NCBI GenBank assembly: GCA_963575745.1
Contig: CAUYUJ010000112.1
Coordinates: 1-64,000, forward strand
Length of the DNA: 64,000 bases
Source of the DNA: Prorocentrum cordatum
Taxonomy: Eukaryota
Direction: 5' to 3'
Shown here: positions 7,331 through 38,995 of the stretch, in pieces
Position numbering within the stretch: the stretch's first letter is position 1
Layout: every line of letters begins with the position of its first letter
Made by a program: the position numbers and the translations under genes
Notes under the pieces: model-generated
Seen by the model: the letters and a program-made list of their open reading frames with translations, nothing else
Told to the model about the DNA's origin: nothing
Database searches by the model: none

Positions 7331-7364
7331 CCTTTTCGGGCAGGCCTGAGGGGAGGATACTTCG

Positions 7365-7409
7365 AGAGCGTCCCAGAACGCTCTCAGATCGTTCCAGACA
7401 GCTCTGGAA
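7365..7409 (+). repeat. Dispersed copy of the interior of intron 19386-19564
   Basis: 36/45 ungapped identity with 19421-19465; contains two small hairpins. Confidence 0.75.
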
Positions 7410-7870
7410 CCGCTGTTCCCCTCCGACCTCCTCCGCCTCCGCCTCCTCCTCCTCCTCCTCCCCGTCCTCCTCCTTCCCTTTTTCTCTCTCTGCGACAACG
7501 ACACTTGAGGCGGCCACAACGACACTGGTTCAACGACATCCAGGACCTCCACCATCGTCGACGATTGCTACCCCGCCGACCACGTCATTCTCTGCGTCAA
7601 GAGCGTCCGCCGATTGCCACCCCGAGGGCCACACCATTCCCGGCCCCCAGATCGACAGCACCGCCGACCGCAACATTCACGTCAATTTCGACTACCAGGT
7701 CGAGTGGCCCAACTACCAGGCTGAAAGCAACGCTGACCACGCACTGTCAGAGCGACGCCCGTCGGCCCGACGCCACACCGACCGCCATCCTGACGGCAAT
7801 CCCTGGGTGTCCAAGTGCAACCAGCTGCCACGCCAGCGCGGTGCGGGCTGCCACTTTGACGGTTACACTC

Positions 7871-12730: not shown

Positions 12731-13151
12731 AGCCGGTTTGGCAGTCCCCAAACGTGGTGTTGACAATACCCGGCGGTGAGTCTCGGGCGATTTGGTGTCA
12801 CCACCTGGTTTGGGGACACGTGTGGTTTCTTGAGGATGTCCCGAACGCTGGTGTGTCCAGGAGTCACAGAACCCGACGGTGGCCCCGTGTCCCAAAACCA
12901 GACGGTGACTTTTTGGGGGTTCCAGGTCAGCACCCGATATCGCACCACCTGGTTTGGGGGCTCCCAGCCGGTGCCCCCCCCCCGCTGACGTTCCCCCCCA
13001 GCTGGAGCGAGGGCCGATGGGCCCCGCGGCCGTGGGCGTGTGGGCGTTGGCCCTGGCGCTTTGGGCCCCCCGCGGGCGCGGCCTGGGCTACCGGTCCGCC
13101 GAGGACCGAGGGCCAGAGAACGACACCCGGAACCCCTCGCGTCGTGACAAA

Positions 13152-13196
13152 CGGGCGGGTGGTAATGGGGGTCACCCCCCATTTACCACCCGCCCG
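13152..13196. repeat. Short near-perfect hairpin (~21-bp stem)
   Basis: CGGGCGGGTGGTAATGGGGG-TCA-CCCCCCATTTACCACCCGCCCG. Confidence 0.85.
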
Positions 13197-13487
13197 GGAC
13201 AATCATGTCATTCAACGTTTTTCTGATTCTTTGTGTTCCGTGCGGTTTTTGTTTTACGTTTGTGTATTCGGCATCTGGGGGCCCTCGCCAGGCCCCAGGA
13301 CCTTTCAGGATGAAAAACGCACCCCGGGGGTCCACGCGGTGAAAATCATGACGTCAGGGGTCCGGGCACGGACGTGCGCTGTTGCAGGCTTGGGCGCTAG
13401 GCAGCGGGGGTCCGCTTCACGAGGGGGGGGGAGATCGAGGGTTGCAGGGCAGTGGCCCTCAATAGGCCCCAAGCGGCCTCTATTCTT

Positions 13488-13651
13488 CGAGTAGGGGATC
13501 GACTACATAATTGATGTGCCCCAGAAATTATTTGTTCGTCGAAATCATGAGAAATGCGTAGATTGCCCGTAGATCTACGAGCATTCTACGCATCACTTGA
13601 CGAGAAGATCACTTCTGGGGTAAATCAATTCTGTAGACGATCCCCTACTCG
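13488..13651. repeat. ~164-bp imperfect palindrome (fold-back element)
   Basis: The ends CGAGTAGGGGATCG and CGATCCCCTACTCG pair, and the arms align inward to the centre GTAGA|TCTAC. Confidence 0.85.
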
Positions 13652-14304
13652 GACGCTGTGCACTGCCGCCGCGGGCCCGAAGGGTGCTGCAACGGCGCGC
13701 GTTTCCTCACCTCCCCTTGTCCCCCCCCCCCCGTTAGCACACGCCCGACGGGCCCCCACGGATTTCTTGGGCCGGTGCTGGACCCCCACTCCCACTCTCC
13801 CCTGGCGGCGCCTCCGGCGCCGGTTCCCGGGCGCTGGAGGCGCCGAGGAGGGGGTTCGGGAAAGATGATCGAAGCAGTTTTGCCCGAGCGGGAGCCGCGG
13901 GACCAAGGGTAATTAGTAATTAGGGGGAGGCGAGGGAGGAGGCGGAGGTGGAGGAGGAGGAGGCGGAGGAGGAGGAGGAGGAGGAGGAGGAGGAGGAAGA
14001 GGAGGAGGCGAGGGAGGAGGGGGAGGAGGAGGAGGGGGAGGAGGAGGAGGCGAGGGAGGAGGGGGATGAGGGGGAGGGAGGAGGTGGAGGAAGAAGAGGA
14101 GGAAGAGGAGGAGGTCCTGCTTGCTTTGCCAAGTAGTCGGTGGGCGGTCCCCTCGTCGAGGCCGCCCGTCGCTGCCGTCCGTCGCCGCCCGGTGGCCGCT
14201 GGCTGGCGCTTTTCCCGGAGCTTGCCCCGTGGCCGCCTCTTGGCCGCTCCCCGCCTCGTGCGCTGGTTCGGGTGTTTATGACGGACACGTAGCCCGTAGC
14301 GAAC

Positions 14305-14447
14305 ATTAAGTCGGGCCTGTCCCTCTACAGGGGGAATGTTCAACATAGTCACAAAAAATAATAGGGGGACAATGTTTGGATATTTTTTGGGCTTTTATGT
14401 TTCGTGCGAAATCCGCCTGTGTGGGGAGGGGGCGCGCCCGACCTGAA
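14305..14447. mobile_element. MITE family GTTAAGTCGGGCC, copy 1 (right TIR degenerate)
   Basis: The left end TTAAGTCGGGCCTGTCCCTCTACAGG is identical to the copy at 37091. Confidence 0.7.
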
Positions 14448-15147
14448 GCTAACATGCCACATGGTGCACCACATGTCACACATCTCGCACCCCGTACTCT
14501 GCACGTTATAGGCAGCACAGTGTGGATGGTGCCACCCGTCTCGCACCACATATGTTCTCCTAGAGAAGGAAAGACGCACCGCTCTCCCGAGCCTGGACTT
14601 AACCGTCCCTCCTGGGATATTGCAAGTTACTTACTGCTTCTGCCTCATCGCCCGTTTACCGTTTTCCACATGCCATCCCAGCCAGGCCAGTCAGGCCAGT
14701 ATGGACACCCCCATCACCCCTGTCAAATAATACCACGTGACCGCGCGTTCGCTTATCTCAGGATGTATTTTCAATAGCCCCTTGCCATACATACAACAAA
14801 GTCCACACGTCTGCAGAAGTCGAGATCATATTTTTTTGTGCAATCGTTTCAAGCTAACATCCTTACACACGAGTTTTTTTTGAATGGGAGCGTGTCCGCG
14901 CGTACTTGCTGAAGTTCTCAACTCACCACGCGGTGCATCCGCGTTGATCTAGCATGCACCCAGTGCGCGACACCGTATCACAGAGTATCGCACTGGCAGC
15001 CTGCGCTCGCCGCTACGGGCGCGTGTCGAAATCCTTCTCAAACCATTGGTCTTCTAAGCATTTCAAGATAGAGCTCGTCAAGAACATATGAAACACCTGG
15101 TGTTCTTCAACCGAGTCTTGAACATTTTCTTTTCTGCGCGCGCGCCG

Positions 15148-15865
15148 GCCTCTTGGGGCATCATGGGGCCTCTTGGGGCCTCTTGGGCCGTCTTCGGGGC
15201 CCTTGGCCTGTCTGACGCCTCTTTCCTGGCCCTTGGCATGTCTTAGGGGCCCTTGGCCGTATTATGGGCCATGGGCCTTCGGCGGCCGTTTTGGGGGCCT
15301 CTTTGGGCCATCTCGGTGCCCTCTTGGAGCTCGTTGGGGCAGTCTTGTGGCCTTCTCGGGAGGCTCTTGGGCGATCTGGGGTCCTCTTGGGCCGACTCGG
15401 GGCCCTCTTTGAGGGCCTCGTGGGCTGTCTCGGAGCTATCTTGGAAGCCTCTTGGGCCGTCGTGGGCGGTCGGATAACGAAACAGGCGAGAATTCAAAAT
15501 CACTTAAACTAATAGGGGGATCGCTGTTTTTCGCCTCCTCGGACTCCTGGAGGTCCTCTTGGAGCCCTCTTGGGCCGTCTTGGGGGCCCCTTGGGCTCTC
15601 TTGAGGTCGTTTTGGGAGCCTCTTGAGCCGTCTTGGGCCATCTTGGGCCGTCCCGGTGTCGTCTTGGCTCTCTTGGAAGCCTTCTTGGAGACCGTCTTGG
15701 CCGTCTGGAGGCCGACCAGACAACTGGAGATCAAATTCAGGGCGGGGAGGGGCGCGAGCGGAACAGGAGGTGGGGCGGCCCTAGAACTTACAACGACTAA
15801 ACCTACTTCCCAAGCAACAGGCGAGCATTGTAACACGCCCACTCCGTGCAGGCACGGTTGCGGAT
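15148..15865 (+). repeat. Degenerate (TCTTGGGGCC)-type minisatellite element ending in a CCGTGC-AG-GCACGG hairpin
   Basis: Recurring CTCTTGGGCC/CTTGGAG units; related arrays at 36740-36865 and 57880-58950; hairpin at 15844-15857. Confidence 0.7.
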
Positions 15866-16289
15866 TTGTTGCACGATGTCTTGTTCTGCGGGTATCGCGT
15901 CCACCCTTCATCCCTGCCCAATAATACGATGTTGGTCACATGTGCACGCCCCCGCGCGCGGATGCCAAATTCACGGAACAACCATTGTAATTGAAACAAT
16001 GTTCAGGAACATCGCCCCAACTACGGACAGCATCTATTTATAGGTTTTCCAGCAAATCTTGGTAGGATTTCTGCGCGCGCGCACTCGCTGACATCACCAC
16101 ACGGCCATGGGTTGCCCAGACATTCTGTCGAATGAGGGCATGCGCGCCGCACGCTCGCGCATGTCGAACACGTGCAACAAGTATCGCGCGTCTGCCAACT
16201 CAGCCGCACGCGCGCCTCTCCGCGCGGGCACGTCGACATCCGCGCAAAACCTTCAGGCGTTTCAACAACCTGAACACAGCTGTGTCCAA

Positions 16290-16368
16290 CCACACGCACA
16301 CGCACGCACGCACACACGCGCACACACTCACATGCACGCACACACACACACACACACACACGCGCGCA

Positions 16369-16400
<32 letters not shown>

Positions 16401-16472
16401 CGCACACACACACACGCACACACACACACTCACACGCACACACACACAAACACGCATGCACGAAGGCACGCA

Positions 16473-16504
<32 letters not shown>

Positions 16505-17343
16505 CACGCGCACACACGCACACACTTACACGCACACGCACGCACACGCACGCACGCACACATACACACACATACGCAAGCACACGCGCACACACACACA
16601 CACACGCACACACACACGCACACGCAACCACACACGCACTCACGCACGCACGCACACACGCACACTCATACACACACGCACGCACGCACTCACGCACACA
16701 CACACACACACGCACGCACACGCACACACACATACACGCACTCACGCGCACACACACACAACCACACAAACACAAACAGACACAAACACACAAACACACA
16801 AACACACAAACACACAAACATACAAACACACAAACACACAAACACACAAACACACAAACACACAAACGCACAAACCCACACACACAAACACACAAACGCA
16901 CACACAAACACACAAACACACAAACCCACCCACACAAACACACAGACGCACACACACAAACACACAAACCAAACACACAAACACACAAACACACAAACAC
17001 ACAACCACACAAACACACAAACACACAAACACACAAACACACAAACACACAACCACACAAACCCACAAACACACAAACACACAAACACACAAACACACAA
17101 ACACACAAACACACACACACAAACACACAAACACACACAAACACACAAACACACAAACCCACAAACACACACACCCACAAACACACAAACACACAAACAC
17201 ACAAACATACAAACACACAAACGTACAGACGCGCGCGCACACATGCACGCACGCATGCACGCTCACACGCAGATACACGCGCACACGCACACACACACAC
17301 GCACACACACGCGCACACGCACGCGCACACACACACATGCACG

Positions 17344-17374
<31 letters not shown>

Positions 17375-18022
17375 GAACACGCACACATACGCACACATGC
17401 ACGCATGCACGTACGCACGCACGCACGCATGCACGCACGCACGCACACACACACACACATTCGTACGCACGCACGCACAATCACGCATACATATACACAC
17501 AGGCACACACAGACACACCCAGACACACTCAGACACACACCGACAACACACACAGACATACACAGGCACACACAGACACACACAGGCACACACAGACACA
17601 CACAGACATACAGAGACACACGCACAGACACACACGGACACACACACACACAGACACACACAGAGACACACACACGCAGACACACACACACACACGCAGA
17701 CACACAGACACACGCACACGCACACACACACGCACATGCGCACACTGACACACGCACGTACACACGCGCACGCATGCACGCACGCACGCATGCATCCACA
17801 TACACAGACACACACACACACGCACATACACAAACGCACACACACACTCACACACTCACATACATATATATACACATATGTACACACTACACTACACTAC
17901 ACTGCGCTATACTACACTACACCACGCTACACTACACCATACTACACGACACTACACTACACTACGCTACGTTACACTACACTGCATTACACTTACACGC
18001 ACACTTACACACACACGCACAC
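16290..18022. repeat. 1.7-kb compound CA-rich microsatellite: (CA)n, (CACG)n, (CACACAAA)n, (CAGACA)n, (CACTA)n
   Basis: Directly visible; accounts for the HT/CV-rich pseudo-ORFs. Confidence 0.97.
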
Positions 18023-18656
18023 GAACCCCACAGGCTTTCAGCACGCACTCGCCAGGAATTCGGAATTTATGCGGGCGAGCACTCCCTCATCTTCATCATC
18101 ACAATCGTTGCCATCAACATCAGCGTCATCATCACCATCGCCATCATCACCACAGCCGCCGTCATCATCGTCATCGTCGGTGCCCTCACTCGTTTCAGTT
18201 TTGATCGCGCGCACCTCCTCATCATCCTCACCAGCACCATTGTCATCATCATCGCCAGCGTCATCGTTGCCACTGTCATTGTCATGACCATTCGCTTCAT
18301 CGCCATCACAATCATCGTCGTCGATATCGTCCTATCATCGTCATGTACGCATCATGATTGACATCATCATCGTCGTTGGCGCAGCTCAGTTGAGTTTGCT
18401 CTTAAATTGTGATTGGTTGGGCGGGTGGGATGCTTGCACGAACAATGCATGTTGTCACGAGTGGATGCGATTATAATCAATAGCACCCCGCATATTGCAC
18501 CACATGATTTGGTTGGGCCGCATGGATTGCATCCGATAGTTCATATCCCCACACAAAGCGCACATCGAGGCTGCATCAAGCCCACTGTTTGGGGGCCAAG
18601 GTGGAATTTATATATTTGGTCTTCGGGAGGAGGTGACTCGCATTCAGCAGCATGAC

Positions 18657-19385
18657 ATGGCCACCCTCCCTGTGGGCGTGGAGGTCGTCGACGCTTGGTA
18701 TGGCTCCCCGACAGACGCCAGCAGGCGAGTGAACGTCACCGGCATGGTACGGAAGCAGTACCGAAGCGGCAACCTGACCGTCTACGCTTTGAACGAGCTG
18801 TACGGCAACGTGGACCCCTGGAAAACGAAGGTGCTGGAGGTTCGTTTCGCGCATTTGCCCAAGGTCAGAGCTCCAGCGCCCAGGGAGAGCCCTCGCGGGG
18901 TCACCGTGCTGGCGCAGATAGGCGACCCGAGGTACTGGGAAGACTTGCGGTCGTGCATGGTGAACGTGTCGCAGGCGGTGCAGGGTGCCGGGGAGGGCTT
19001 TCAGATCTTCCTTGCTTTCCCCGACGATGTCCCAGGTGGCCACATGGAGAGCATCCTCGGGGATGCCCGCGCCCAGTTCGGGAAGCAGTCTGTCCGGAGC
19101 CTCGTGGGAGAAGACCGGGGGGCAGACGTCGGGCTGTATCTCAGGCAGCTGCGCGTGCTCGGCGCTGAAGATCCGGCCGATCACTTCGACATCTTCCTCA
19201 AGGTGCACAGCGAAAGCGACCGCCTCCATAGGCGGGCGCGGCTCGGCGACCTCTGCGGGAGTGCCGCCAAGGTGCGCGAGATCCGCAGGGCCATGCGGGA
19301 CGCCGACGACCTGGGAATGGTCGGGCCCGCGAACGAGGTCCTGCAGTACCCGCGCCGGACCAAGGACTTCGCAGCTTGGGGCGAG
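18657..19385 (+). CDS. Exon 1: DUF3395-like N-terminal domain plus the start of a rhamnan synthesis F (RgpF)-like domain
   Basis: VEVVDAWYG...VNVT...NELYGNVDPWKTKVLEVRF fits the A-x-YG...DVT...DP...K-x-L-x-V pattern. EDRGADVGLYL, FDIFLKVHSES, DLCGS and DLGMVGP match the RgpF motifs NRGxD, YDxxLKxHxK, LLGS and LGMVGP. The start codon is uncertain and upstream exons are possible. Confidence 0.75.
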
Positions 19386-19564
19386 GCTCGGGCGGGGCCA
19401 GGACCAGGATCAAGAGTTCCAGAGCTTCCCGGAACGCTCTCACAGCGTTTCAAAGCGCTTTGGAATGACCGCGCCGCCCGGTACATCCTCCAGAACCGCT
19501 GGGTCTCAGAGATCCCCGACTTGTCCCGGTTCGATGTTATCCCGGTCCTGGCCCAGTCTTGGAG
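19386..19564 (+). mobile_element. Intron 1: GC-AG intron that is a TIR element (introner-like)
   Basis: AG|GCTCGG...GGAG|GC; removing the 179 nt restores the frame. Internal TIR GGGCCAGGACC(A/G)GGAT at 19395-19410 and 19539-19554. The alternative boundaries 19381-19556 also restore the frame. Confidence 0.75.
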
Positions 19565-19708
19565 GCGGACATAAAGGGCATGCTCAGGGCCTGGAGGACG
19601 ATGCAGCCCTGCGTGCCCTTCGACGTCCCGCTGCACAGGGCGCGCGTCGTGGCCGGATCCTCCTTCTGGTCCCGCCAGGACGCGGTGCTGCACCAGATCA
19701 TCCTGCAG
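19565..19708 (+). CDS. Exon 2 of the RgpF-like gene
   Basis: ADIKGMLRAW...RVVAGSSFWSR...IILQ matches the RgpF F-x-AG-x-x-FW-x-R motif. Ends at CAG|GCTCGG, the same donor sequence as intron 1. Confidence 0.75.
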
Positions 19709-20193
19709 GCTCGGCGGCACGCACGAGCCTCGGATCCTGGCGTCGCAGGTTTCGTCACACGTCGCAGCGGGCGATCTTGCCCTGTTTCGGGCTTCGGGGC
19801 CCTCGCGGATCGACGCAGCTCGAAACATGCAGCAGGAAGATGGGGTCCGGGGCTCCAGTCATGATGGTTCCAAGCGTCGGATCTCTGGGAGGGGGATGGC
19901 GCGAGGGGGGTGGCCCTCTAAGAAGCAGCGTGGCTTCTTAGAAAGCAGGGGCCATCTCAGAAGGCCCCTCTTCGAAGCTTCCAGGGGCTTCTGAGAAGCC
20001 CCCGGTCTTCTTAGCAGCCCCCCCCCCGAACGAACGAAGAAGCCGTGCCATGACGGCACATCGGCTGCAGTTCATATGGTGTGCGAAACAGAAAAGCAGC
20101 ATCATAGCGACTCGCCTGCTTAGCTTACGCGGGAGGGGGGGGGAGAAGAGAGGGGGGAGGACCGGAGCGGGGCAACAGTAAGCGGGCAAGCCC

Positions 20194-23135
20194 CTATGAA
20201 AGAGAACGGCAATGCTGCCGCACAGTGGCCCTCCAGTTCTGGAAAGAGCCGCTACCATTCGACAGCGTTGCTGCTAGCCGGTCCTCGTCCTGCTGCGCGA
20301 CGCTCAGTGCATGCGCCCTGACTCTCTGGCCCCACGACACCCTTGGGCGCCCTCGTTTTCGAGCGCCCCCTGGGCGTGCCAACATCGTGGATGAAGGTCG
20401 AAATACGGAGCGTCGTGCGATAGATGCGTCGGGCATCATGGCCACCCGCCCAAACAAACACATCTGTTTGGCGACTAGCTGGTCTGCCAGCGGGCTCGAC
20501 GACGCTGTCTTCAGAACTTCCTGGTTGGACACCCGGGATATCATCGGATGCGGATGCCCCATATCTTCCGCAGGCATTGCACATGGAACGAATTGATGCG
20601 AGAAAACTCTGCCTTATTCAATCGCTCCGTCTCCAAACTGTAGAGCAATTTGGCGACGACACACGCTTCGTATATGCGTTGCTTCCTTGCCCGACTCAAC
20701 GAAGAATGGCTCTATACCTTCGTCAGAAGCGAAAAGGAGTTGCGCGCCTCGCCCACCCTGCGTGCCACGGCGCACCTGGCACTGCCGCTGGTGGTGAGCA
20801 GACCGCCCAGATAGATGTGCTGCTCTGTCTTTGGGATGGGCTGGCCGTTCGGATCGTAAATGGGTGGCGGATCTCCAACTTGCAGCACCACGGTCTTGTC
20901 CCAATTAGGCAATAATCCATACGGGGCGGCCCGCGAGAGCAGGCTGTCGAGGGCGTGCTGCAAACAAGCGGACGACTTGCAAATCAATGCTGTATCGTCC
21001 GCGTACTCGACGTCATCTGTCCGGCTGCCTGCGTGCTCCCAATTCACGTCCTCCATGATGACAGACAAAACGATGATAAACAGGTGTGGCGAGAGCGGAC
21101 AGCCCTGGGCAATGCCAGCGGACTGCTCTCTGGCACCAGATTCCTTGCCAGAGTCGCGCACGGTGAAGGTTTTGTTCTGGTAGATGGATGCGACCATGTC
21201 CACGTATTCCTCAGGTAAGCCAAACCTGCGCAGCGCCACTTGCATGGCGCCGGGGTCGATGCGATCGAAAGCCTTGGACCAATCTAGGAGCAACACTGTC
21301 AGTTCTCCATGCTTGAGATCCTGGGCGGCGTCCAGCATCCGCTGCACGGTGAGAATGGCCAAGTGGGCGCCGCGACCACGTCGGAAGCCGAACTGGTTGT
21401 CGCGGAGCCGGCCCTCCACCCCTCCAGATCGCAGTCGCTGCAGGATGAGGCTCGCAAGCACCTTGTATCCAACTGCCAGTAGAGATATTGGACGGTAGTT
21501 TGAAGGCAGCGCAGGGTCACCTTTCTTGAAAAGCGTGGTGACTGAGAAGTGCGACCAGTCCTGTGGAATTGACTTCGAATGCCAGCACTGGTTGCACAAA
21601 CGCAGCAATATGTCGAGGGCGCCCGCACTCCTGCCAAGCACAGCCCAGAAATCGGGCGGCACGTTGTCAGGCCCACTTGCTCTGCCTCTCCGCAACCTCG
21701 ACAAGACTGATTTGAGCTCCGCTGTCAAGAACTCTCCGCAGGGTATGTCAAGAGTTGCCCCAAGTTTCGGCTCCTCTGGCACGCCGACACCTGCGCCTGG
21801 ACTACGTTGCCACTGCACGTTCTGCAAATATGTCGCCAAAGTGTCTGCCCTCTCGCTGGAATCCACCAGGTCGCCGGCCGAATTGCGAAGTCTGCCTTGT
21901 TGTTGGCGGGCAGACCCCTTCCGAAGGCGCTTGATTGCAGGCCAACCTCCGTCCGCCAAGTCTGCTTCCAACCATGCTGCCCGGTCATTCTTGGCCGCTG
22001 ATTTGATTTGCTTGTTCAGCGAGGCCTCCAGTGCGAACTGCCCCAAAACCCGTGCGTTGTTCCGCAGCTCGATGAGGTCCAGCGTGGCCGTTCGAATCCA
22101 CGGCCGCTTTGCCGTGACTGGGCGAACATGCAAGGCGGCATCTGCAGCAGCCTCCATGTTGGACCGCACTTCCTCCGCCAGTGCATCGACGCAACCATCT
22201 CCAGCGCCGCGCAAGATGTCCTGTCCCAACTCGACAAAACAGTCGCAGAATTTCTTCGCCACTGCAGCCTCCCCGAGACTCCGGGTGTCCCGCGTATCCC
22301 GGGATTCCCTGGGAAGCTTCTTCGGGATGTGCACGCCTAGGTCTGCGATGACAACGAAATGATGCGATTGCAGGGCAATGTCCCGCCTGCTCCGGACTGC
22401 GCGAATAACTCCAAGCCACTTTTCATGCACAAGTAAATGATCAATCTCAGCGAACTTGTTTGCCGTGATTTCGTCCATAGGTCGTGCAGAGATGTCGTAG
22501 TACGTGACTTGTTGGTGCACGGGGCGCTCGTGGAAGGTGTTCGCCACGACCATATTCATAGACCTGCAGGTTTCCACCAGGAGCTCCCGATTGCTCGCAG
22601 CATCTATATTGGCTTCGCGATTGCCGTAAACGTAAGGCCCTAGAACGTCGTGCTCCGCAGCGCCTCGTTTGTGAATCCTGCTGTTGAGATCGCCACACAC
22701 GACAATAGGTCCGTGGACTTTGGTTTTCTGCACAACGTCTTCCAAATCATTGAAGAAATCCTGTCGCTCCTCAGCCGGGCGCCCGTTGTGAGGGGCATAG
22801 CCTGTAATGAAACACATTTGTCCTCTTTCAACTCGGACCCGCAAGCTCGCTAACCTGGGACTGTGTTGCGCGAAGCCCAATACAGCACAACGGACGCGAG
22901 GAGACACCAAGAAACCTACTCCGACATGCTCTCTCTCATTCAGGCTCCCGCCAGATAGAATGACAAAGAAATCGTTGTGCAGAAAATATGCTGAACCAGC
23001 CAAGTGCGTTTCTTGGAGTCCCAGCACATCTATGTTCTCTGCCTTCAGAACCAACTCAATATGTTCCAACTTTGTTTCGTCCATCTGCTTCTCGTCTGAA
23101 AGGCCCTCCACGTTCCATGAGGCAAGCCGTCCCAT
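20194..23135 (-). CDS. LINE ORF2: apurinic-type endonuclease plus reverse transcriptase, with a premature stop at ~20712 and a 1-nt frameshift at ~20555
   Basis: EN motifs SWNVEGL, LQETH, GYAPH, GDLNSR, EIDHLL. RT motifs SGPDNVP, YRPISLL, QFGFRRGR, LDWSKAFD, GIAQGCPLSP, YADD, YLG. C-terminal RKRGRPRVSW. Confidence 0.95.
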
Positions 23136-23277
23136 GCAGATCGGTCTTGGGGTCGTTCTGCTCCGGAATTGCCTTTGGCAGTTCCGTCGTTCTTGAAAAC
23201 GGTCAGGGAAAGCATTCGGTGGCAAGGGTAAGGTTGGTGAAACCTCCAGGGCGGTCGCATGAATACCTACCTCACCA

Positions 23278-24369
23278 TTACAAGTGATGCGCAAAACTCC
23301 CCAGAGTGTGAAACGCCGATGCGCCGTCCGAGTTCCTAGCGCTTCGTAGGAGCTTGTCCTGGCCGGCCTTGAGGATCTTTTCCCAATCCTCGCTCTTCAG
23401 GTAGCCCTCCCACCCGGCCTCGTACTCAACCTTGAGGGCCCCTTCCTCCACGACCGCCGCCAGGACCTTTTCGTCCCCCATGTGCAGGGTGAAGGCCTCC
23501 TCGTCCACCCACATGGAAGACTTCACGAACCCCCACTGTGAAAGCATCCACTTCGCTCCGAAAAGAACCTGGCGTGCAACGCGCGTGCCTAGGGGCTGCT
23601 CTTCTTTGGCCCAAACACGTTTCCCGTCAGCTGTCTCATGTTTCAGGCTCCTGATCGTCGCAACCGCTGTGTCGCGATCTTCTTGTTTAGGGAATTCTGC
23701 GAACAACAGCCCCTTGAACTCCCCTTTCACGAAGTAGTCAGAAGCTGGCGTAACATACCCCTCCCACAATCGATCTTTTATCCACTTGGATGCTGACCAC
23801 TCGTCCCCCATACTTTCCAAACCTCCAAAAACTGCAATCAACTTGGTGTCCTCGGTCCCATTCTTCATGAGGGCGCGCATCTGGGCCTCCAGCTGCACAA
23901 TTTGGTTCTGCAAGTCCTGCTGGAGTTTGCTGTCCTGCGGGTTCCCGCCCTTCCTCCCCCCTGGGCCCACGGACGCCGTGAAGGTCTGAAGATCGTCATT
24001 CACAGCCTGGATCTTGTTCATGAGGTCCTTGTTCTTCTCCTCCATCCCCTCCCACATATTGTCCATGTTCGACTCCACTCTTGCCACGTCGTCCTGGAGC
24101 TCCCGGACGGTGTCCAAGACTGGCCGGATACGTTCATCAAACTTCTTGTCCAAGAGCTCCGCGATAGCACTGAGGGTGACAGGCTGTTGAGCTGCATCCG
24201 GAGGTGTAGAAGGAGTGGTAGCCGCTGGTCTCGTCTCCTCCTCGCCCTCGTCCCCGTCCATGGTGTGCAGCGGGCTGAACAGCCGCTGTCGAACGTCGCG
24301 TTCGCCTCGTAGGGGCGTGCCTGGCTGCCGCGTGTGAGGCCGGCTCCCGGCGCCGGCGCCGTCAGCCAT
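23278..24369 (-). CDS. LINE ORF1 (coiled-coil plus possible RRM-like region), ~363 aa
   Basis: Intact ORF directly upstream of ORF2 and inside the TSD. Heptad-rich segment VRELQDDVARVESNMDNM...LQNQIVQLEAQMRAL; KGLLFAEF resembles RNP1. Confidence 0.8.
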   Translation of the reverse strand: MADGAGAGSRPHTRQPGTPLRGERDVRQRLFSPLHTMDGDEGEEETRPAATTPSTPPDAAQQPVTLSAIAELLDKKFDERIRPVLDTVRELQDDVARVESNMDNMWEGMEEKNKDLMNKIQAVNDDLQTFTASVGPGGRKGGNPQDSKLQQDLQNQIVQLEAQMRALMKNGTEDTKLIAVFGGLESMGDEWSASKWIKDRLWEGYVTPASDYFVKGEFKGLLFAEFPKQEDRDTAVATIRSLKHETADGKRVWAKEEQPLGTRVARQVLFGAKWMLSQWGFVKSSMWVDEEAFTLHMGDEKVLAAVVEEGALKVEYEAGWEGYLKSEDWEKILKAGQDKLLRSARNSDGASAFHTLGSFAHHL

Positions 24370-24457
24370 TGCGCGCGGCTGGGGGCGAGGGAGAGAGAGC
24401 GATAACGGGATCGCGGCGGGAGAGATGGAGCGGACGGAGCGGCCTCTCACTCCAAGG

Positions 24458-24491
24458 CTTGAGCCAACCGCTTGAGCCAATCGCTTGAGCC
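24458..24491 (-). other. Three tandem spliced-leader relics at the LINE 5' end
   Basis: The minus strand reads GGCTCAAG-CGA-TTGGCTCAAG-CGG-TTGGCTCAAG, the 3' half of DinoSL (DCCGTAGCCATTTTGGCTCAAG). Confidence 0.75.
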
Positions 24492-24689
24492 CCCCCCCCG
24501 CCTGATCAAAAGGCCGCCCCCCCTCTCTGCACCCCCCTACGCGCGCCACTGACACCGGCATCACCCGAGCATGCTGCTTATGCTATGTTTGCGTCGCCCC
24601 CCCCCCCCCCCCAGGGAGCGACTCGCGCTCTCTCAGAAGTCTAATCATATGTGCGCAAGCTTGGGCCACGCACAGTGCACCTCTGGTAA

Positions 24690-25050
24690 TATAGGTTGTG
24701 CAGTATGTGTGGTGCAGTCCATGTGGTGCAGTCTGCGTTGTGCACCCTATGTTGTGCAATCTGTGTTTGCAAGTCATTTGGTGCAATCTACGCGGTTCAA
24801 TATATGTTGTGTAGGCTATGTGGTGCAGTCTAAATTGTGCAATCTATGTGAGGCAGTCAATTGTGTGCTCTACGCGGTGCAACTCATGTCGTGCTAATTA
24901 TGTGGTGCAGTACATGTTGTGTACTATATGGCGTTCAAGATATGTTGTGCTATCCATGTGGTACAATAGATGCGGTGCAAATTTGGTTGTGCAAACTATG
25001 TGGTGCATTTCATGTGGTGCAATATATGCGGTGCAATATGTGTTGTGCAG
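24690..25050. repeat. Degenerate (TATGTGGTGCAA)-like minisatellite
   Basis: Recurring TGTGGTGCA/TGTTGTGCA units. Confidence 0.8.
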
Positions 25051-25548
25051 TCTAGGGCGGCGACGAGGCGGCGACGTGGTGGCCACGGTGGCCACATAGC
25101 CGCCAGGTCGAATACACTGCCCAGACGACGGGCGGCGACGGCGGCCTCATAGCCGCCAGACCGAAGAAACGGCCCAGCTCCTTCGAACAGAAGCAAGGAC
25201 TCCTAAAGGCAAGCATTGCTTGGGGAAAGTGCTCGGCGACGGGGCACGCTTCCTCGCCACACCGCTCGGGCAACGATGTGCTGTACAGTGGAGGCCCATG
25301 CCAAGAAACACCCTGCTCGCCTCCAGGGTGCCCTGGGTTTCTTGGGTTTCGGTGGTTTTGCTATGGAGAGCGTGGCGCTCCCACACCAAACATCCGTGGT
25401 CGTCCTGGGGTCTCAGTGTTGGATTTCTTGTGGAAGGTTTCTTGTGGACTGGCCTCCACTGTATAAGATGTCTCTACGATGTGTTCGGTTCGAACGTGTG
25501 CCCCCCGAGGAGGGCGCACAGTTATGTCCTTTCTGCGTCCCAGAACAG

Positions 25549-25661: not shown

Positions 25662-25849
25662 GCTCTCATGGACAACGTTCGGGGGGGAGATGCTCCGATG
25701 CATCAACCCCCAATCGCCTATTCATCGCCGATCGGTGGATCGCCCACCACCGCCCAGGAATGTGCGGCTTCGCAACCGGGGGCCTATCGCCGAGCCATCG
25801 GCGATGTGTCGCCAATTCCAGTTCGACGTTGCCGATCGTTGCCCCTCAG
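25662..25849 (+). mobile_element. Intron 3: GC-AG intron that is a TIR element of a dispersed family (introner-like)
   Basis: GG|GCTC...AG|GCTC junction repeat. TIR CTCATGGACAACGTTCGG / CCGATCGTTGCCCCTCAG (14/18). Paralogs at 12089 and 47760. Removal gives VRG-LRVLG in frame. Confidence 0.7.
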
Positions 25850-25984
25850 GCTCAGGGTCCTCGGGTCCGACGAGCTGCCGGAGCTGCGGGGGGAGCAAGC
25901 CCGGAGCGCCGATGCCGAAGGGCTGGACGACTTCGAGGAGCTCCGCCGCAAACGGGTCCCTGAGCCCTCTCGGGTCCACTCCGG

Positions 25985-25985
<1 letters not shown>
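25850..25985 (+). CDS. Exon 4 of the RgpF-like gene (3' boundary uncertain)
   Basis: In-phase, GC3-rich stretch LRVLGSDELPELRGEQARSADAEGLDDFEELRRKRVPEP that runs into a (CT)n/(TA)n tract. Confidence 0.55.
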
Positions 25986-25988
<3 letters not shown>

Positions 25989-26056
<68 letters not shown>

Positions 26057-26215
26057 TCCCCTCTCTCCTCTCCTCTCTCCTCTCCTCTTTTCTTCTCCTG
26101 TCCTCTTCTCTCTCCTCTTCTCTTCTCCTCTCCTCTTCTCTCCTCTCCTCCTTTTCTCTCCTCTCCTATCCTCGCCTCTCTTCTCCGCTCGCTCTCTTCT
26201 TCTTGCTTTCTTACT
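25989..26215. repeat. (CT)n, (TA)n and (CTCTC)n microsatellites
   Basis: Directly visible. Confidence 0.95.
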
Positions 26216-27699
26216 CATAGTATGCTTATTGTTGTATTTCCTTCTTCTTCTTATGCAGAACATCTCATTATTCGTAGTTATGGTGAGTACTAATATTTGT
26301 GTTGTCATTTGTACTCTCATTATCATTATTACTAGTATCGCGCTCTTCCTTTCTCTTCTCCCTGCATGTTCCTCTGAATCATTGTTTTGGCGGTCCCTGA
26401 GGCCGAAGCGGGCCTCCAGAGGTGGGAAAGCATGCGGCGCAATTCCGCAGACATCCGACGGTTCAGGCATTCTCCGACGCGGGGAAGCCCTTGAAGTGGC
26501 CATTGACGTCCACAGCTCATCCACAGATGGCAGCAACCATGCCATGGACATCGACACGCTGATGGACGAGCACCAACTCGATCCCACAGCAATGGCCCAC
26601 TGCGTATCACACTGGCGCGCCAGACACCGACCAGGCACGGCGTGCGCTCTGGGATGGCACCTCGTCGACGCGCCAGGCAAATTATCAGACGCACGACGGC
26701 TCCTTCCTGCTCCGGAGGGTCGCAACCAAGGGGTACAAGGCCAAACCAGACTCCTAGTTGAAAGGCTGGACCCTTTTCAACGACAGCGCAAGGCACCGAT
26801 GGGCCTGCGACAGACACCCCGACGGCGGCCACGAGGTGCTGACCGACATCGACGACGGCCGCCCGAACATGCGACCACAACATTTCACAGACCACATGGC
26901 CAGTCCCTCACTGGCCGTCACGGCCACCGAGGATGGCTGGGGGCCCGACGTTCCGTGGCGAAAAATACCCACATTCAAGGACGCCCTGCCAGGCCGATGG
27001 GTTTGCACCGACGCGCACTGTGACTGCAACGCCTGCCCTACCTGTGCCCAGCACCTCTACTACAGCCAGGCTGGGCACCAGCATCGCCTCCTCTGCCCAT
27101 GGTGCACACAGGGACACAGCATGAGGTGGTCCACAGAGGAAAAAAAGGAAGGCACGCAGCAAACAACTGGCTTTGCTCCTTCGCCTCCGTCAACGAGAGC
27201 AACGCTTGCGGCTTCAATTGTCGCAGCACCGGAGCTGCCCTTGACGAGCACGGCCCGAGCAACCCAACCCAAACAAACTCTGACCATGGATGCGGACCGG
27301 GGGCTTTTGACAGCTGCGTAAGCAAAGGGCCGCTTTTTCCAACAATGCCACCCATCAGGGATGGCTTCAAGAAGCAGGGCCACCGTGGGGCGACGGCGGC
27401 GTCACCAGACAGCGCCACGAGCCCACTCGCAGGCAACTAAGCCAACACCAGGACTGTCACGCTCAGGGACGAGCCCGCCTGCGAGCCAGAGCGGCCACTC
27501 TTCAAAGCGGAAGGAGTGGTCATCTTCTCCCCCGACCGCGACATGCTTAGCAGCGCTGCGCTCGCCACCAGTCAGGCAAACCAGCCCTCGAGGTACGTTC
27601 TCTCGGGCTGCACCGAGTAACAAAGGAGAGCCCTGTCAGTGCAACAAGCCATGGAACTCCTCGTCAGAAGGGTCCAGACACAGAGCCAGATGATTCGAC

Positions 27700-30600
27700 G
27701 TCGAACTACTCTGGCGTGGAACCCCGTTGCATCCTCAGTCTATCGTCTTCGACGTCCTTTCAGGATACAGCGGCGGCATGGTCGCCTTCCGACTTGACGG
27801 CCATGCGGCTAGGGAAGTTCGCCACCCGCTGGCGAGGGGCAACATAGTTTATTCGAGACAAGGCAGGCCCCAGTGGTCCAGCTTGGCCGCGACCCGCAGA
27901 CCCACAGCCAAGTCGCGATCCAGGGGCCGACCTACGGCGCCCTCGGGGATCCAAGACAGACTGTGCCAGGGCCTCCGATGCTTGAGCTCTCGCGTCCTGA
28001 ACGATCGTCGCCAGTCGACGCAGGCGCGGCAAAGGAATCTGCTCAGCTCACTCCCAGACAACCAAGCCACCCGCCACCAGGCGTGGATCGCACCGCGAGC
28101 GGGACAGTCAACGCCGAAGCTGACGGCGAGCAGCAGTCACGACCCCAAGTGGTTTTGCGGCCGCGGAAAGACATGGGTGACAAGGGCGAGCTCGAAAGGC
28201 TCGACCGCGAGCTATCGCCGCCATGGCAAAGGCCTCCTGGGCCCGGGCGACGCGCTGCCCAGGGAGGGGGAACGCCCTCCGACTCGCTGTCGCCGTCGCC
28301 GAGAAGGGTTGCTCCACCCAACGCCCAGTGCGCTCGCAAAAAGTGAGCCCCAGAGAACGACGAGCCAAGGCATGCCAAGCGACAGCACGAACCAGCGCGA
28401 GACCCAAACGAGCGCCGACGGGCACCAGGGACAGCCTTGCTGGGCCTTTCCGGCCCAGAACTCGCAGCTGAACAGGCGTGGATCCAGAGGTCCGAGGCCC
28501 CGCCTGGGGCGCCGCCGTAGAGCGCGGCGCCACAGCTCTAGCACTGCGGGCCCAGCAAGCAGGAAGGTACTCCTACGCGCGACCATCCGCAGTGCGGATC
28601 TCCCAGCGAGTCGGAGTCGGCAAACCTCGGGGTCGCGACGTGCAGGGCCAGGGCGCCCGAAGAGAACCTCATCGCATCGCCCGGCGAGGCTCCGAGCTTC
28701 GCCGCGCGCGCAGGCGACGCCGGGCTCCCCGCGCAAGGGGTCGGCAGCCCGAGCGCCAGCTCTTGGGGGCCAGTGTACCTGGCGCGCCTGTAGGGCACCA
28801 GCCAAGGTCCCCTGGAGATCGGCCCCGACCACTCGGAGGTGGACTTCGACGACGGCAGCAAGGACATCGACATCGGCGAGGACGTCGAGGCGGCGGTGCA
28901 GGCCCCCGCCGGCGCGGCGCCGCGCGCGGGAGCGACCGCTCCCGAGCGCAGCTGCAAGCGCTGCCGCTCTTTTGCGTTCGCTTTCGCTTCCGCTTTTCCT
29001 GGCGGCGGCGCAGGCGACGGCGCCTGCCCCCGTCGCGCCGCCGCCCGCAGCCGCCGGGTCGCCGTTCCCTCGGTCCTTCCCCCGGCGGCCGACGGGTGCG
29101 TCGAGGCGCCGACCGCGCTCGCACTTTCGACAGGTGCATCTGCTCACCAGACATGGGAGCCTGACGACCAGCGCGGGGTCGCAGCCCACTGAGCAACCGC
29201 GTCCAGCGGGACGGGCGCGGAAGGGGGCGTTCATCGCAGAGTGCGCTCCGCGACCGCCAAACGCGGAGGGCAGCGTGCATCGCTGCGCAAGGAGCGCTGG
29301 CTGACGCGTCCAAGGACGACCCAACCGTCGCAGGCCTTCCCGCGACCGCGCGATTCACTGGTCCGAAACATACCTTTGCCCAAGATCAGCCAGGGTGAGA
29401 TGGGCCGTCCGCGGGATTGGGCGCTTGCCAATGTGCCCGGTCAGCTTGCCCCGCGCGCCAGCGCAGCATTCGCGCGTCCAGACGCAATGGCGCGTTCAAT
29501 GGTTAGCTGTTCGATTGCAACGACAAGCGCTGCTTTTTTTGAAGGACTTCTGGGGGCATCGCGGTGCGCGTGCGGCTCAGGACTGCGCGGGAGTGGCGGC
29601 GCTTGTCCCATTTGGTGGAACAACGACATGTCCTCGCTATCTTGGAAACTGATGCGTCCGTGCTCATCCTGAGGAGCGACGTTGCAGCGTCGCGCCCCTC
29701 AGGGGGCCGCAGCGGCCGCGTCGGGGACGGCTCTGGAGGGCATGAGATGTGCTCGAGAGCGTTCTTGGGCGTGCCGCCACCTCGGTTTGGCACGGGTATG
29801 TGTCTGAACCAGGAGACATGCCCAGACCCAGCTGTGGTGGCTCTCGGACGCCTCGGCTAGGTGCGTGTCTGTCTCAGGATTTTATGACGTGCCTGGACCT
29901 AGCTGCGGCGATTCTCGGAGGGCCGTCCAGGGGGGGCGGCCTTTGGCGACCTCGGCCAGCGCTCGGAGTCGCGATGCTTCTGCATCGAGCAATTCGCGAT
30001 TGAGCGGTTGTCGCGCAGTGGCGTTCGCGCCAAAATTGCCCATGCGCGCCCCCGAGTGCGCGTTGACCCCGCAACGCTGGGATAAGGCCTCTGGAGGCGC
30101 ACCTCCGAATTAGCTGGTCTAGTTCGGCGGCGACCAACGCGGAGTTGGTCACTCGGCCTATTCGAGCGCACATGCAATCGGTGCCGCCGTGCGCCTGGCG
30201 AAGACAGCTTCCTGTAATGTTCAATCGGCCGTCGCATCTACATGTGCGCGGCCGCCGACAGCTGCGGCGAGTTGCCCCCCCGCCACTTGCCACCCTGTCT
30301 AGGCAAGGGTACGGGTATGTTTCCCGCTCGAGGGCGACGAGCGGCACGTCTCCTCCCCATTATTGCTCTCGCCACCGCCGCCAGGCGGGCAACTGGGCGG
30401 AGAGGCCGCCGCCGAGCCCTCGCCGAAGGCATCTTCGCAGCGTCGGTATACATCAAATCGGGCGCCGACAACACAGCCTTGTTTCAACGTGTCTGGTGCG
30501 CGGCCAATTGGGTGGTAGACGTGCGTATGCGTGGGCGCCCAATGCGGCCTGAAGGACTCGGCTGTCCACGCTAGCGCCCTCGGCCTCGGGTGGACTGCCG

Positions 30601-35716: not shown

Positions 35717-36169
35717 CGGGGGCGGCTAAAGGGGGTGATGACTAGGGTGGGGTGGATATCATGGCCAGGGCCACGACATTCTTCCCAGGTCTACTGACTT
35801 TAAACGTAAATAGTGGTGGTAGCGTAGATGGGGGGGCCGGAGTCGGTGCAATAGTTTAGCACGTGCGGTTTGGACGCAACCATTGCGTGTGGATGCAATC
35901 GTGCATTCTTTCAAACGCAATCTTTTGCGCAATAGTTCATGCTCTTTGCAATAGTTCGCGCCCTCCAGCATTAGTTGGCGCAAGAGTTCGCACAAGCGAA
36001 ATATTGCACCTACCACCGCACCCCCATCGGCGTTGCCCCCATCGCTCCAGTCTAAAATGGCGCCTCTTCTTATTTGAAGTCGTCCCTTGGCCCTTTCTGG
36101 GCCGCCCACATGCCTCGGGCCATGACTTGCGAGCCCCCCTCTTGGACGCCTCCCTCTTGGATGCCCCCG
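35717..36169. mobile_element. MITE (TCGGGGGC...GCCCCCGA ends) carrying a nested ~260-bp TIR element at ~35798-36057
   Basis: The outer arms match the uninterrupted copy at 37747-37929. The inner piece has inverted ends GATGGGGG...GGTGCAATA / TATTGCACC...CCCCCATC. Confidence 0.6.
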
Positions 36170-36696
36170 ATGAGATCCGGTGTGTACCTACGGGAGGTTC
36201 GGCCACTTGCGTGCATGGACTTGCTGTCCTCCCTTCTCCTCCCTGCTCCCTCCCTCCCCTCTGCTGTCCTCCCTTCTCCTCCGTTGCCTTTCGTTGTATT
36301 GGGAAGGCTTTGCCCATGTAATTATGGCCCGCCGACCTTGTATGCGAGGAGGAGAGGCAGCAGATGAGCACCAGGGTCGGCCGGAGGTAATATACGACAG
36401 TCCCTGGGGTCCGAAAACGGTGGGGAGACTGGGAAAGCACAAGAAGAAGAGATAGCTTCGCCAGGGGGCATTGTGGAGCGACATCGGAGCAGAAATCCTC
36501 TAATGTGGTGGCGCCGGGAGCGTCTTGATATGGGTGCTCGGGTAAGTTGCGAAGCTGCGCCGACGTGTCAGAAGTAGCTGTCAAGGGGCGCTAGTGGAGG
36601 TTTCCTGGGTTGTGGTCGGGGGTCTCGAGTCGAGCCCCAGACCAAATGAGGGTGGTCCCCCGACGACGACGATGAAGATGAAGATGACGATGACGG

Positions 36697-36728
<32 letters not shown>

Positions 36729-37089
36729 CTCGCGAGCTCTCGTGGGGGCCTTGTGGGCCCAGTTGGCCTCTCTTGGGGGCCGAATAGGTCGTCTAGGGGC
36801 ATTCATAGGCCGTTTCGGGGCCCCCTGAGCCGCCTTGGGGCCATTTGGAGCGCTTCTTGGGCATCCTTCTCCTCCTCCTCCTCCTCCTCCTCCTCCTCTC
36901 CTTCCCCTCCTACTCCTCCTGCTTCTCCTCCTCCTCCTCCTCCTCCGTTGCGTTCGTTGTGTGTTCATTCAAATGGCTGGCGGAGCCATCGGGGATGCCC
37001 ACGCAACGCGTTCGGCCTTTCTCCCCTCTCCTGCCTGCCTTTTTCTTTGTCCTGCATCATGTGCTTTTCCCTTGATTTCGGCCTCCAGG

Positions 37090-37234
37090 GTTAAGTCGGG
37101 CCTGTCCCTCTACAGGAGGAATATTCAAAGATAGTCAAGCAATACAATTTTTTATAATTAGTGAGTATTTCCCGCTATGTTTAAATGAATTTCCCATCGA
37201 AAATCGGCCTGTAGGTGGACAGGCCCGACTTAAC
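37090..37234. mobile_element. MITE family GTTAAGTCGGGCC, copy 2
   Basis: Perfect TIR GTTAAGTCGGGCCTGTCC / GGACAGGCCCGACTTAAC with an AT-rich interior. Confidence 0.9.
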
Positions 37235-38817: not shown

Positions 38818-38995
38818 TTTACGGATCAACTGCACCATAATTAACAGGAGGCGCTCCGAGGCCCCCCGCCCCTGGAGCCGCTCCGAGGCCCCCCCCCCAT
38901 GTGGGACGCCAGAAGCCCTCGTGAGATCCGGCGTGGCGGACACATCGCAAGATCGCGAACAGTCAGGCTCAGAGCCCCACGCGTAATTTCGGCCG

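What the first reader, a model, noticed from the sequence alone, without database searches (positions are those of the whole stretch)
19386..19564. Intron 1 of the RgpF-like gene is a TIR element with a dispersed paralog (introner-like)
Seen: removing 179 nt (AG|GC...AG|GC, with GAGGC repeated at both junctions) fuses two RgpF motif blocks in frame. The intron has 16-bp subterminal inverted repeats, and its interior matches 7365-7409 at 36/45. Known: introners are non-autonomous TIR transposons that create spliceosomal introns, and dinoflagellates use GC donors frequently. Inference: intron gain by a MITE family, or a MITE that landed in and now fills a tiny pre-existing intron.
Basis: partly seen in the sequence, partly recalled or inferred. 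Interest (0 to 1): 0.75.

Follow-up and report, generated by a model that had tools for sequence, protein, structure and literature searches.

The report
Transposon-made intron in a dinoflagellate gene
A 179-base intron of a dinoflagellate sugar-polymer-enzyme-like gene is a small mobile DNA element plus one copy of its duplicated target, and the cell cuts it out of the message exactly; this way of making introns is already known in these algae.

Summary
Window 19386-19564 (179 nt, GC..AG, GAGGC at both junctions) is missing from contigs of 4 of 4 runs laid, from 4 studies; one is on record as polyA RNA. A stored transcript ORF, P0004, reads straight across the junction. The 16-nt inverted repeat (15/16) is far beyond chance: 0 of 5000 shuffles.

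A metagenome contig (L002) holds a colinear copy of the interior, 129 of 172 positions identical. It has different flanks and its own exact 7-nt direct repeat. A left-half copy lies at 7337-7415 (nhmmer E 1.2e-10). L002 homology starts directly after the left GAGGC and stops 0-2 nt before the right one. The intron is therefore element plus one target duplication, with both splice sites (AG|GC) taken from the duplicated target. That leaves no room for an older intron.

Corrections:
- It is the second of six coding introns, not intron 1.
- Junction repeats of 3-8 nt occur at all six introns, so GAGGC alone proves little.
- "RgpF-like" rests on relatives only.

The kind is known: dinoflagellate introner-like elements. 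Genome-wide copy number and the ortholog state could not be tested.

The parts
19386..19564 (+). The 179-nt GC..AG spliceosomal intron. It is phase 0 and the second of six coding introns.
   Evidence: Contigs of 4 of 4 runs join 19382|19562, skipping 179 nt with 5 nt of slack. GC..AG is the only splice-type phase among the six possible cuts. P0004 reads across the junction.
19388..19559 (+). Body of the mobile element (172 nt, or 174 nt to 19561 if the target duplication is 5 nt).
   Evidence: Colinear with L002 369-539: 129 of 172 columns identical, 1 gap. blastn gives E 8e-35.
19395..19410 (+). Left arm of the subterminal inverted repeat.
   Evidence: The pairing is kept in L002 in the same register.
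19539..19554 (+). Right arm of the subterminal inverted repeat.
19381..19387 (+). Left copy of the putative target duplication, GCGAGGC. Its last 5 nt, GAGGC, are repeated exactly. The donor AG|GC lies in it.
   Evidence: The 7-nt length is inferred from L002's exact 7-nt repeat.
19560..19566 (+). Right copy of the putative target duplication, TGGAGGC (5 of 7 like the left copy). The acceptor AG|GC lies in it.
18630..19385 (+). Coding exon 2 of the RgpF-like gene.
   Evidence: Contigs cover 18627-19382 with 0 differences in 3 runs. Junction mapping to P0004.
19565..19708 (+). Coding exon 3.
13017..13103 (+). Coding exon 1, with the start codon and a signal-peptide-like N-terminus.
   Evidence: The loose end of all four runs' contigs lies at 13071-13100. 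tblastn of P0004.
7337..7415 (+). Partial (left-half) copy of the same element family, set between CCT-type simple repeats.
   Evidence: nhmmer with the intron+L002 profile: model positions 2-84, E 1.2e-10. blastn 55/78 starting at the element's first base. 36/45 ungapped.

Best explanation
A non-autonomous DNA transposon with inverted-repeat ends (a MITE of about 172 nt) inserted into the coding sequence of an RgpF-like gene of a dinoflagellate. The target contained ...GAG|GC..., and this short target was duplicated on both sides of the element. Because the duplicated target contains AG|GC, the spliceosome uses the GC of the left copy as the donor and the AG of the right copy as the acceptor. 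It therefore removes the element plus exactly one copy of the duplication (172+7 or 174+5 = 179 nt), which restores the original reading frame between Glu281 and Ala282.

Shown: precise removal from transcripts; the inverted repeat; a related copy at an unrelated place with its own flanking repeat; no spare intron sequence outside the element and its duplication.

Inferred: that the insertion created the intron rather than replacing one; the exact length of the duplication (5 to 8 nt); that a transposase acting in trans moved it. The inverted repeat can pair in the RNA and bring the two splice sites together, but whether that helps splicing was not tested.
For: Splicing:
- 4 of 4 runs laid, from 4 studies, each have a contig that joins 19382|19562, skipping 179 nt with 5 nt of slack. 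X15 is on record as polyA metatranscriptomic RNA. The kind of the other three is a guess or unknown.
- Depth inside the intron (bin 19440-19505) is zero in all four runs.
- The same contigs also skip the two flanking multi-kb introns.
- P0004, a 476-aa transcript ORF held by two sources, is 100% identical over the exon and reads WGE|ADIKG. All six junctions reproduce it.

Mobile-element anatomy:
- The inverted repeat is 15/16. None of 5000 shuffles reaches it, and 4 of 1725 window segments do.
- The other five introns of the gene score only 9-12 of 16.

Family:
- 1 of 5 metagenome loci found with a 22-nt core motif (L002) is a near full-length copy. blastn covers 167 nt at 77% identity, E 8e-35, and mafft gives 129/172 identical with 1 gap.
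- L002 is flanked by an exact 7-nt repeat, ATGTGCT, at 362-368 and 540-546. Chance expectation is about 0.003 even with 3 nt of slack on each side.
- The inverted repeat is kept in L002 in the same register. One pair changed on both sides (C:G to T:A at 19404/19545), and the intron's one mismatch is a pair in L002.
- A profile of the two copies finds a left-half copy at 7337-7415, E 1.2e-10.

Boundaries:
- L002 homology starts at 19388, the first base after GAGGC, and ends at 19559, 0-2 nt before the right repeat.

Precedent:
- Roy et al., preprint 10.1101/2020.10.14.339549 (parts 1-2 of the text read), describe Polarella classes 12-14, in which both splice sites come from an NAGGH or AGGH target duplication. 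GAGGC fits NAGGH.
Against: - Only one copy of the family is shown to be an intron. L002's flanking repeat has no AGG, and its flanks show no long open frame. The copy at 7337-7415 is partial and has no transcript evidence.
- The GAGGC repeat is not specific: all six introns of this gene have 3-8 nt of identical boundary sequence (GAGGA, GAGGC, CAGGC, GGCTC, AGG, CGAGGCGC), including three-to-nine-kb introns without end repeats.
- The duplication length disagrees between the copies. It is 7 exact in L002 but only 5 of 7 here, so either two substitutions occurred or two of L002's seven bases match by chance.
- The outermost 7 nt of the element are only weakly inverted (2 of 7).
- The RNA fold of the intron is not more stable than shuffles (z -0.86; 39 of 200 shuffles fold at least as well).
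- All runs were Logan contigs, which cannot show rare retained forms. No DNA run holding the stretch was found, so an empty-site allele or processed copy as the source of the RNA is not formally excluded.
- Intron presence or absence at this site in relatives could not be examined.
Confidence: 0.8

Rival explanations
1. The MITE landed inside a small pre-existing intron and now fills it.
For: Dinoflagellate introns often hold MITEs. The window has 66 inverted-repeat pairs with arms of 15 nt or more within 400 nt of each other.
Against: L002 homology begins at the first base after the left GAGGC and ends 0-2 nt before the right copy. An older intron could have contributed 2 nt at most. Both splice sites lie in the repeated GAGGC itself.
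Confidence: 0.05
2. This is an ordinary, old intron whose end hairpin evolved for splicing, and L002 and the 7.3-kb copy derive from the intron (for example by reverse splicing or intron transposition) rather than the other way round.
For: Farhat et al. (PMC7789003, passages seen) propose that end hairpins join the exon boundaries in Amoebophrya introners. They found no family-specific inverted repeats or general transposase there.
Against: L002 carries an exact 7-nt direct repeat right at the ends of the homology, which is the mark of staggered-cut DNA insertion. The L002 repeat lacks any AG|G splice motif. The fold is not unusually stable.
Confidence: 0.07
3. The 179 nt are not spliced from this locus. 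The transcripts come from an allele, paralog or processed (retro-copied) gene that lacks the element.
For: All evidence comes from assembled contigs, and no DNA run was available as a control. In run X11 the assembly graph branches at 19354 into a sequence not present in the window, so close relatives of the transcript exist.
Against: The exons match the window with 0 differences over 905 nt in 3 of 4 runs. The deletion is bounded by GC..AG and restores the frame. The same contigs also lack the two neighbouring introns, as spliced RNA would.
Confidence: 0.03

Closest known systems
Introner-like elements of Polarella glacialis, classes 12-14 (Roy et al., bioRxiv 10.1101/2020.10.14.339549; later Curr Biol 2023, known to me only from the reference list seen)
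   Same: It is a short non-autonomous element with inverted-repeat ends. The intron equals the element plus one target duplication. Both splice sites are recruited from a duplicated NAGGH/AGGH target, and GAGGC fits. It uses a GC donor and is in phase 0.
   Different: No sequence comparison with those classes was possible, because their sequences are not held. The related copy here has a 7-nt flanking repeat, whereas classes 12-14 have 4-5 nt. Only one intron copy of this family has been seen so far.
Introner elements (IE) as defined by Farhat et al. 2021 (PMC7789003) and counted in Prorocentrum cordatum by Dougan et al. 2023 (PMC10666404)
   Same: It meets the operational pattern of an 8-20 nt inverted repeat and a 3-5 nt direct repeat within 30 nt of each intron end (passages seen). 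Relatives of the host protein are P. cordatum proteins at 39-43% identity. The window's GC content of about 60% is like that genome's 59.7%.
   Different: That definition is purely structural and needs no family. Here a related copy elsewhere was found. Amoebophrya IEs mostly have non-canonical ends, while this one is GC..AG.
Aureococcus and Micromonas introners (Huff et al. 2016, recalled and seen only as a citation; Gozashti et al. 2022, PMC9860276, passages seen)
   Same: A DNA-transposon insertion creates an intron by combining element ends and target duplication. TSDs of 3-9 bp and TIRs are reported for part of the families.
   Different: Those families carry one or both splice sites in the element and use GT donors. 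Here both sites lie in the duplicated target and the donor is GC.

Membership tests
Introner element (IE), structural definition of Farhat 2021 / Dougan 2023 | Inverted repeat of 8-20 nt within 30 nt of each intron end | tested here: met
   Arms of 16 nt, 15/16 complementary, 9 and 10 nt from the ends.
Introner element (IE), structural definition of Farhat 2021 / Dougan 2023 | Direct repeat of 3-5 nt overlapping the exon/intron boundaries | tested here: met
   GAGGC at 19383-19387 and 19562-19566. The same is true of all six introns of the gene, so it discriminates poorly.
Introner element (IE), structural definition of Farhat 2021 / Dougan 2023 | The stretch is an intron, removed from the transcript | tested here: met
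   The joint 19382|19562 is in contigs of 4 of 4 runs. P0004 reads across it.
Introner / introner-like element in the family sense (Roy et al.; Gozashti et al.) | Many sequence-similar introns in different genes of one genome | not testable with these tools
   No whole genome is held. In the 64-kb window only this intron and one partial non-intron copy match the profile. Earlier notes of the scan hold no look-alike.
Introner / introner-like element in the family sense (Roy et al.; Gozashti et al.) | Related copies at unrelated loci with transposon hallmarks (TIR and TSD) | tested here: met
   L002 is 129/172 identical, has its own exact 7-nt flanking repeat, and keeps the inverted repeat with one change on both sides. 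Only 1 of 5 metagenome loci and 0 of 8 viral loci were true relatives.
Introner / introner-like element in the family sense (Roy et al.; Gozashti et al.) | Intron = element + one target duplication, with splice sites from the element ends or the duplication | tested here: met
   172+7 (or 174+5) = 179. AG|GC occurs in both repeat copies.
Introner / introner-like element in the family sense (Roy et al.; Gozashti et al.) | Intron absent from the same site in related genes or species (a gain) | not testable with these tools
   Only proteins or transcripts of relatives were available (P0001, P0003, P0005-P0007), and no genomic DNA.
RgpF, rhamnan synthesis protein F (Pfam PF05045), for the host gene | Score at or above Pfam's gathering cut-off (25 bits) | tested here: inconclusive
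   The window's exons and its own product P0004 give no RgpF hit at E up to 1. Relative P0006 (53% identical) scores 39.8 bits, E 3e-10. P0003 scores 23.5, P0007 22.6, P0001 17.9 and P0005 17.0 bits, all below the cut-off. In all 5 proteins with a hit, the matched stretch spans the junction residue. Only the C-terminal part of the profile (about 288-498 of 503) is matched.
A named DNA-transposon superfamily (for example hAT or P) | Characteristic TSD length and terminal motif, and a cognate transposase | not testable with these tools
   The TSD length is unsettled at 5-8 nt. No autonomous partner was looked for, because no genome is held.

The most novel reading that the evidence does not exclude
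The element belongs to an undescribed MITE family shared by different marine protists. The L002 copy, in an unrelated environmental contig, is 75% identical. On this reading the family becomes an intron only when its 5-8 nt target duplication happens to contain AGGH. It would then offer a natural experiment: within one family, compare spliced and unspliced insertions to learn what a dinoflagellate spliceosome minimally needs, and whether the end hairpin that draws the two AG|GC sites together is part of that requirement.
Probability: 0.15. Interest if true: 0.5.

Novelty: new member of a known kind. Interest (0 to 1): 0.3.

Why it matters
This is a clean single case, backed by RNA evidence, of how a transposon insertion can become an intron at once. 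The duplicated target supplies both splice sites, so the message is restored to the base. Such cases support the view that dinoflagellates owe many of their introns to mobile elements. The mechanism and its occurrence in dinoflagellates are already published, including a count of 2.4% of Prorocentrum cordatum introns (supplementary note of PMC10666404, passage seen). The value here is as a well-documented example and as a seed profile for a genome-wide count, not as a discovery.

Tried and rejected
- Whole-genome search for copies: no genome is held for this window, and the record behind L002 is not held either.
- Pfam on the single exons, on the unspliced frame and on the intron's in-frame translation: no RgpF hit. 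The only hit was a weak LEH match at E 0.023 on the exon-3 piece, below its cut-off.
- Metagenome scan with the 22-nt core motif: 4 of 5 loci (L001, L003-L005) match only the motif itself and are unrelated.
- Viral contigs, three motif scans: 0, 8 and 0 loci. The 8 match only around the 18-nt motif (at most 44 nt) and are chance hits. There is thus no sign of a virus-borne copy in that collection.
- Prokaryote genome contigs: 0 hits.
- Rfam on 19300-19650: no family at E up to 1, so there is no known intron-hosted small RNA.
- RNA fold of the intron with 10 nt of flank on each side: the inverted repeat pairs in the minimum-energy structure, but the energy is ordinary (z -0.86). Stability gives no argument.
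- The 36/45 count as evidence by itself: rejected, because 11 of 25 control segments of the window reach 38/45 or more. The profile and gapped matches were used instead.
- The GAGGC repeat as evidence by itself for a target duplication: rejected, because all six introns have such repeats.
- Earlier notes of the scan searched by sequence with the intron and with the L002 copy: no look-alike.
- The parts without cover in the laid runs (introns, and beyond 19710) are contig data and prove no absence.

Full report
**What is there.** The window is eukaryotic, about 60% G+C, and comes from a dinoflagellate-type genome. The nearest named relatives of the gene's product are Prorocentrum cordatum proteins at 39-43% identity. 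Earlier notes on the same genome also call it dinoflagellate (unchecked). At 19386-19564 lie 179 nt that begin GC and end AG, with GAGGC at 19383-19387 and again at 19562-19566. Arms 19395-19410 and 19539-19554 form a 16-nt inverted repeat with 15/16 complementary, 9 and 10 nt from the ends.

**Is it more than chance?**
- An inverted repeat of at least 15/16 within 40 nt of both ends arose in 0 of 5000 dinucleotide-preserving shuffles of the 179 nt. One of at least 14/16 arose in 1 of 5000.
- It occurred in 4 of 1725 other 179-nt segments of the window.
- The interior match to 7365-7409 is 36/45 as stated, and the best of 25 shuffles was 30.
- However, 11 of 25 real control segments of this repeat-rich window reach 38/45 or more somewhere, so that count alone says little.
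- Gapped blastn gives 55/78 beginning at the third base of the intron.
- A profile search gives E 1.2e-10 for 7337-7415. This makes the relation credible. It is a left-half copy, set between CCT-type simple repeats.

**Is it an intron?** Yes.
- I laid four runs from four studies on 18450-20400. X15 is on record as polyA metatranscriptomic RNA. X1 is guessed to be RNA, and X3 and X11 are of unknown kind. All were Logan contigs.
- Each run has a contig that joins 19382 to 19562, skipping 179 nt with 5 nt of slack, and none covers the bin 19440-19505.
- Of the six possible cuts, only 19386-19564 has splice-type ends, GC..AG.
- The same contigs stop matching at 18627 and at 19710. There they continue with sequence that lies at 13071-13100 and at about 25549 of the window. 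They also skip the two neighbouring multi-kb introns, as spliced RNA does.
- Three runs match the exons with 0 differences, and X15 has 2.
- P0004, a stored 476-aa transcript ORF held by two sources, is 100% identical to the exon translation and reads ...AWGE|ADIKG....
- Junction-by-junction mapping reproduces P0004 across six introns:

| Intron | Coordinates | Ends |
|---|---|---|
| 1 | 13104-18629 | GA..AG |
| 2 | 19386-19564 | GC..AG |
| 3 | 19709-25548 | GC..AG |
| 4 | 25662-25849 | GC..AG |
| 5 | 25938-35392 | GA..AG |
| 6 | 35579-40532 | GC..AG |

The finding's intron is therefore the second, not the first. It is in phase 0, with 843 coding bases before it.

**The host gene.**
- Pfam sees no RgpF in the single exons or in P0004.
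- Relative P0006 (53% identical) scores 39.8 bits against a cut-off of 25 (E 3e-10).
- Four others score 17-23.5 bits, below the cut-off.
- In all five proteins with a hit, the matched stretch spans the residue at the junction.
- 'RgpF-like' is thus a fair label, resting on relatives and covering only the C-terminal part of the profile.

**Is it a mobile element?**
- A scan of metagenome contigs with a 22-nt core motif gave five loci. Four match only the motif.
- The fifth, L002, holds a near full-length colinear copy. blastn covers 167 nt at 77% identity, E 8e-35, and mafft gives 129 of 172 columns identical with 1 gap.
- L002's flanks are unrelated to the window and show no long open frame.
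- The L002 copy (369-539) is bounded by an exact 7-nt direct repeat, ATGTGCT, at 362-368 and 540-546. About 0.003 is expected by chance, even with slack.
- The inverted repeat is kept in L002 in the same register. One pair changed on both sides (C:G to T:A at 19404/19545), and the intron's single mismatch is a pair in L002.
- These are the marks of a non-autonomous DNA transposon family.

**How the intron relates to the element.**
- L002 homology starts at 19388, the first base after the left GAGGC, and ends at 19559.
- The 7 nt outside are GCGAGGC on the left and TGGAGGC on the right, 5 of 7 alike.
- The intron therefore equals the element plus one copy of the duplication: 172+7, or 174+5 if the duplication is 5 nt.
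- The donor (AG|GC) and the acceptor (AG|GC) sit at the same place in the two copies.
- This is the scheme that Roy et al. describe for Polarella classes 12-14, where both splice sites come from an NAGGH or AGGH duplication (preprint 10.1101/2020.10.14.339549, text parts 1-2 read).

**What weakens the case.**
- All six introns of the gene have 3-8 nt of identical sequence at their two boundaries: GAGGA, GAGGC, CAGGC, GGCTC, AGG and CGAGGCGC. GAGGC by itself is therefore no proof of a duplication. It may reflect the splice consensus, and Table 2 of PMC10666404 gives AGG at 79.7% of acceptors.
- Only the 179-nt intron has a strong end repeat. The others reach 9-12 of 16.
- The duplication length differs between the two copies.
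- The RNA fold is not unusually stable (z -0.86).
- Only one copy is shown to be an intron.
- No genome is held, so copy number, the share of copies that are introns, and the state of the site in relatives stay open.
- Contigs cannot show rare retained forms, and no DNA run was available as a control.

**Comparison with what is known.**
- The intron meets the structural definition of an 'introner element' used for Amoebophrya (PMC7789003, passages) and for P. cordatum (PMC10666404, methods passage).
- The P. cordatum authors report such elements in 2.4% of all introns (supplementary note, passage).
- A review states that recently active introners were found in four of five dinoflagellate genomes (PMC11453091, passage).
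- The kind is therefore known, and this is a new, well-documented member.

**Other searches that found nothing.** Three motif scans of viral contigs gave no family member. The prokaryote genome contigs gave none. Rfam finds nothing in 19300-19650.

**Verdict.** The introner-like reading is supported at about 0.8. Interest is modest, because the mechanism and its presence in dinoflagellates are in print.

Noticed in passing
window 13104-40532: All six coding introns of the gene use GC (4) or GA (2) donors and none uses GT. Each has 3-8 nt of identical sequence at its two boundaries (GAGGA, GAGGC, CAGGC, GGCTC, AGG, CGAGGCGC). Four of them are 5-9.5 kb long.
   Followed up: yes
window 25662-25849: This is a second short intron (188 nt, GC..AG). 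The tetramer GCTC stands both at the donor and right after the acceptor, which recalls the 4-nt GHNN duplication pattern that Roy et al. describe for Symbiodinium-type elements. Its best end repeat is only 12/16, and it has no relative in the window.
   Followed up: partly
window 20712-23396 (- strand): An 894-codon open frame lies inside intron 3. By eye it reads like an endonuclease plus reverse transcriptase of a LINE-type retroelement. It was not searched against any library.
   Followed up: no
window 16000-18300: A long CA/ACAC-type simple-repeat tract lies inside intron 1 (GC skew -0.55, AT skew +0.71). It gives long spurious open frames of Thr-His repeats.
   Followed up: no
window 37087-37237 and 38654-38824: Two hairpin elements with similar ends (TTAAGTCGGGCC..CTACAGG) lie inside intron 6, so they are probably another MITE family with two copies. 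The window holds 66 inverted-repeat pairs with arms of 15 nt or more within 400 nt of each other.
   Followed up: no
window 24695-25054: A tandem array of about 13 copies of a 28-nt unit lies inside intron 3.
   Followed up: no
window 19325-19354: In run X11 (coded organism B) the contig graph branches after 19354 into a more deeply covered contig whose continuation is not in the window. This points to a paralogous or alternative transcript that shares at least 30 nt with exon 2.
   Followed up: partly
window 19386-19574: If the intron were retained, the frame would stay open through it for 63 codons, up to TAA at 19572-19574. The L002 copy is open in the corresponding frame too. This is probably a side effect of the high G+C content.
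   Followed up: no
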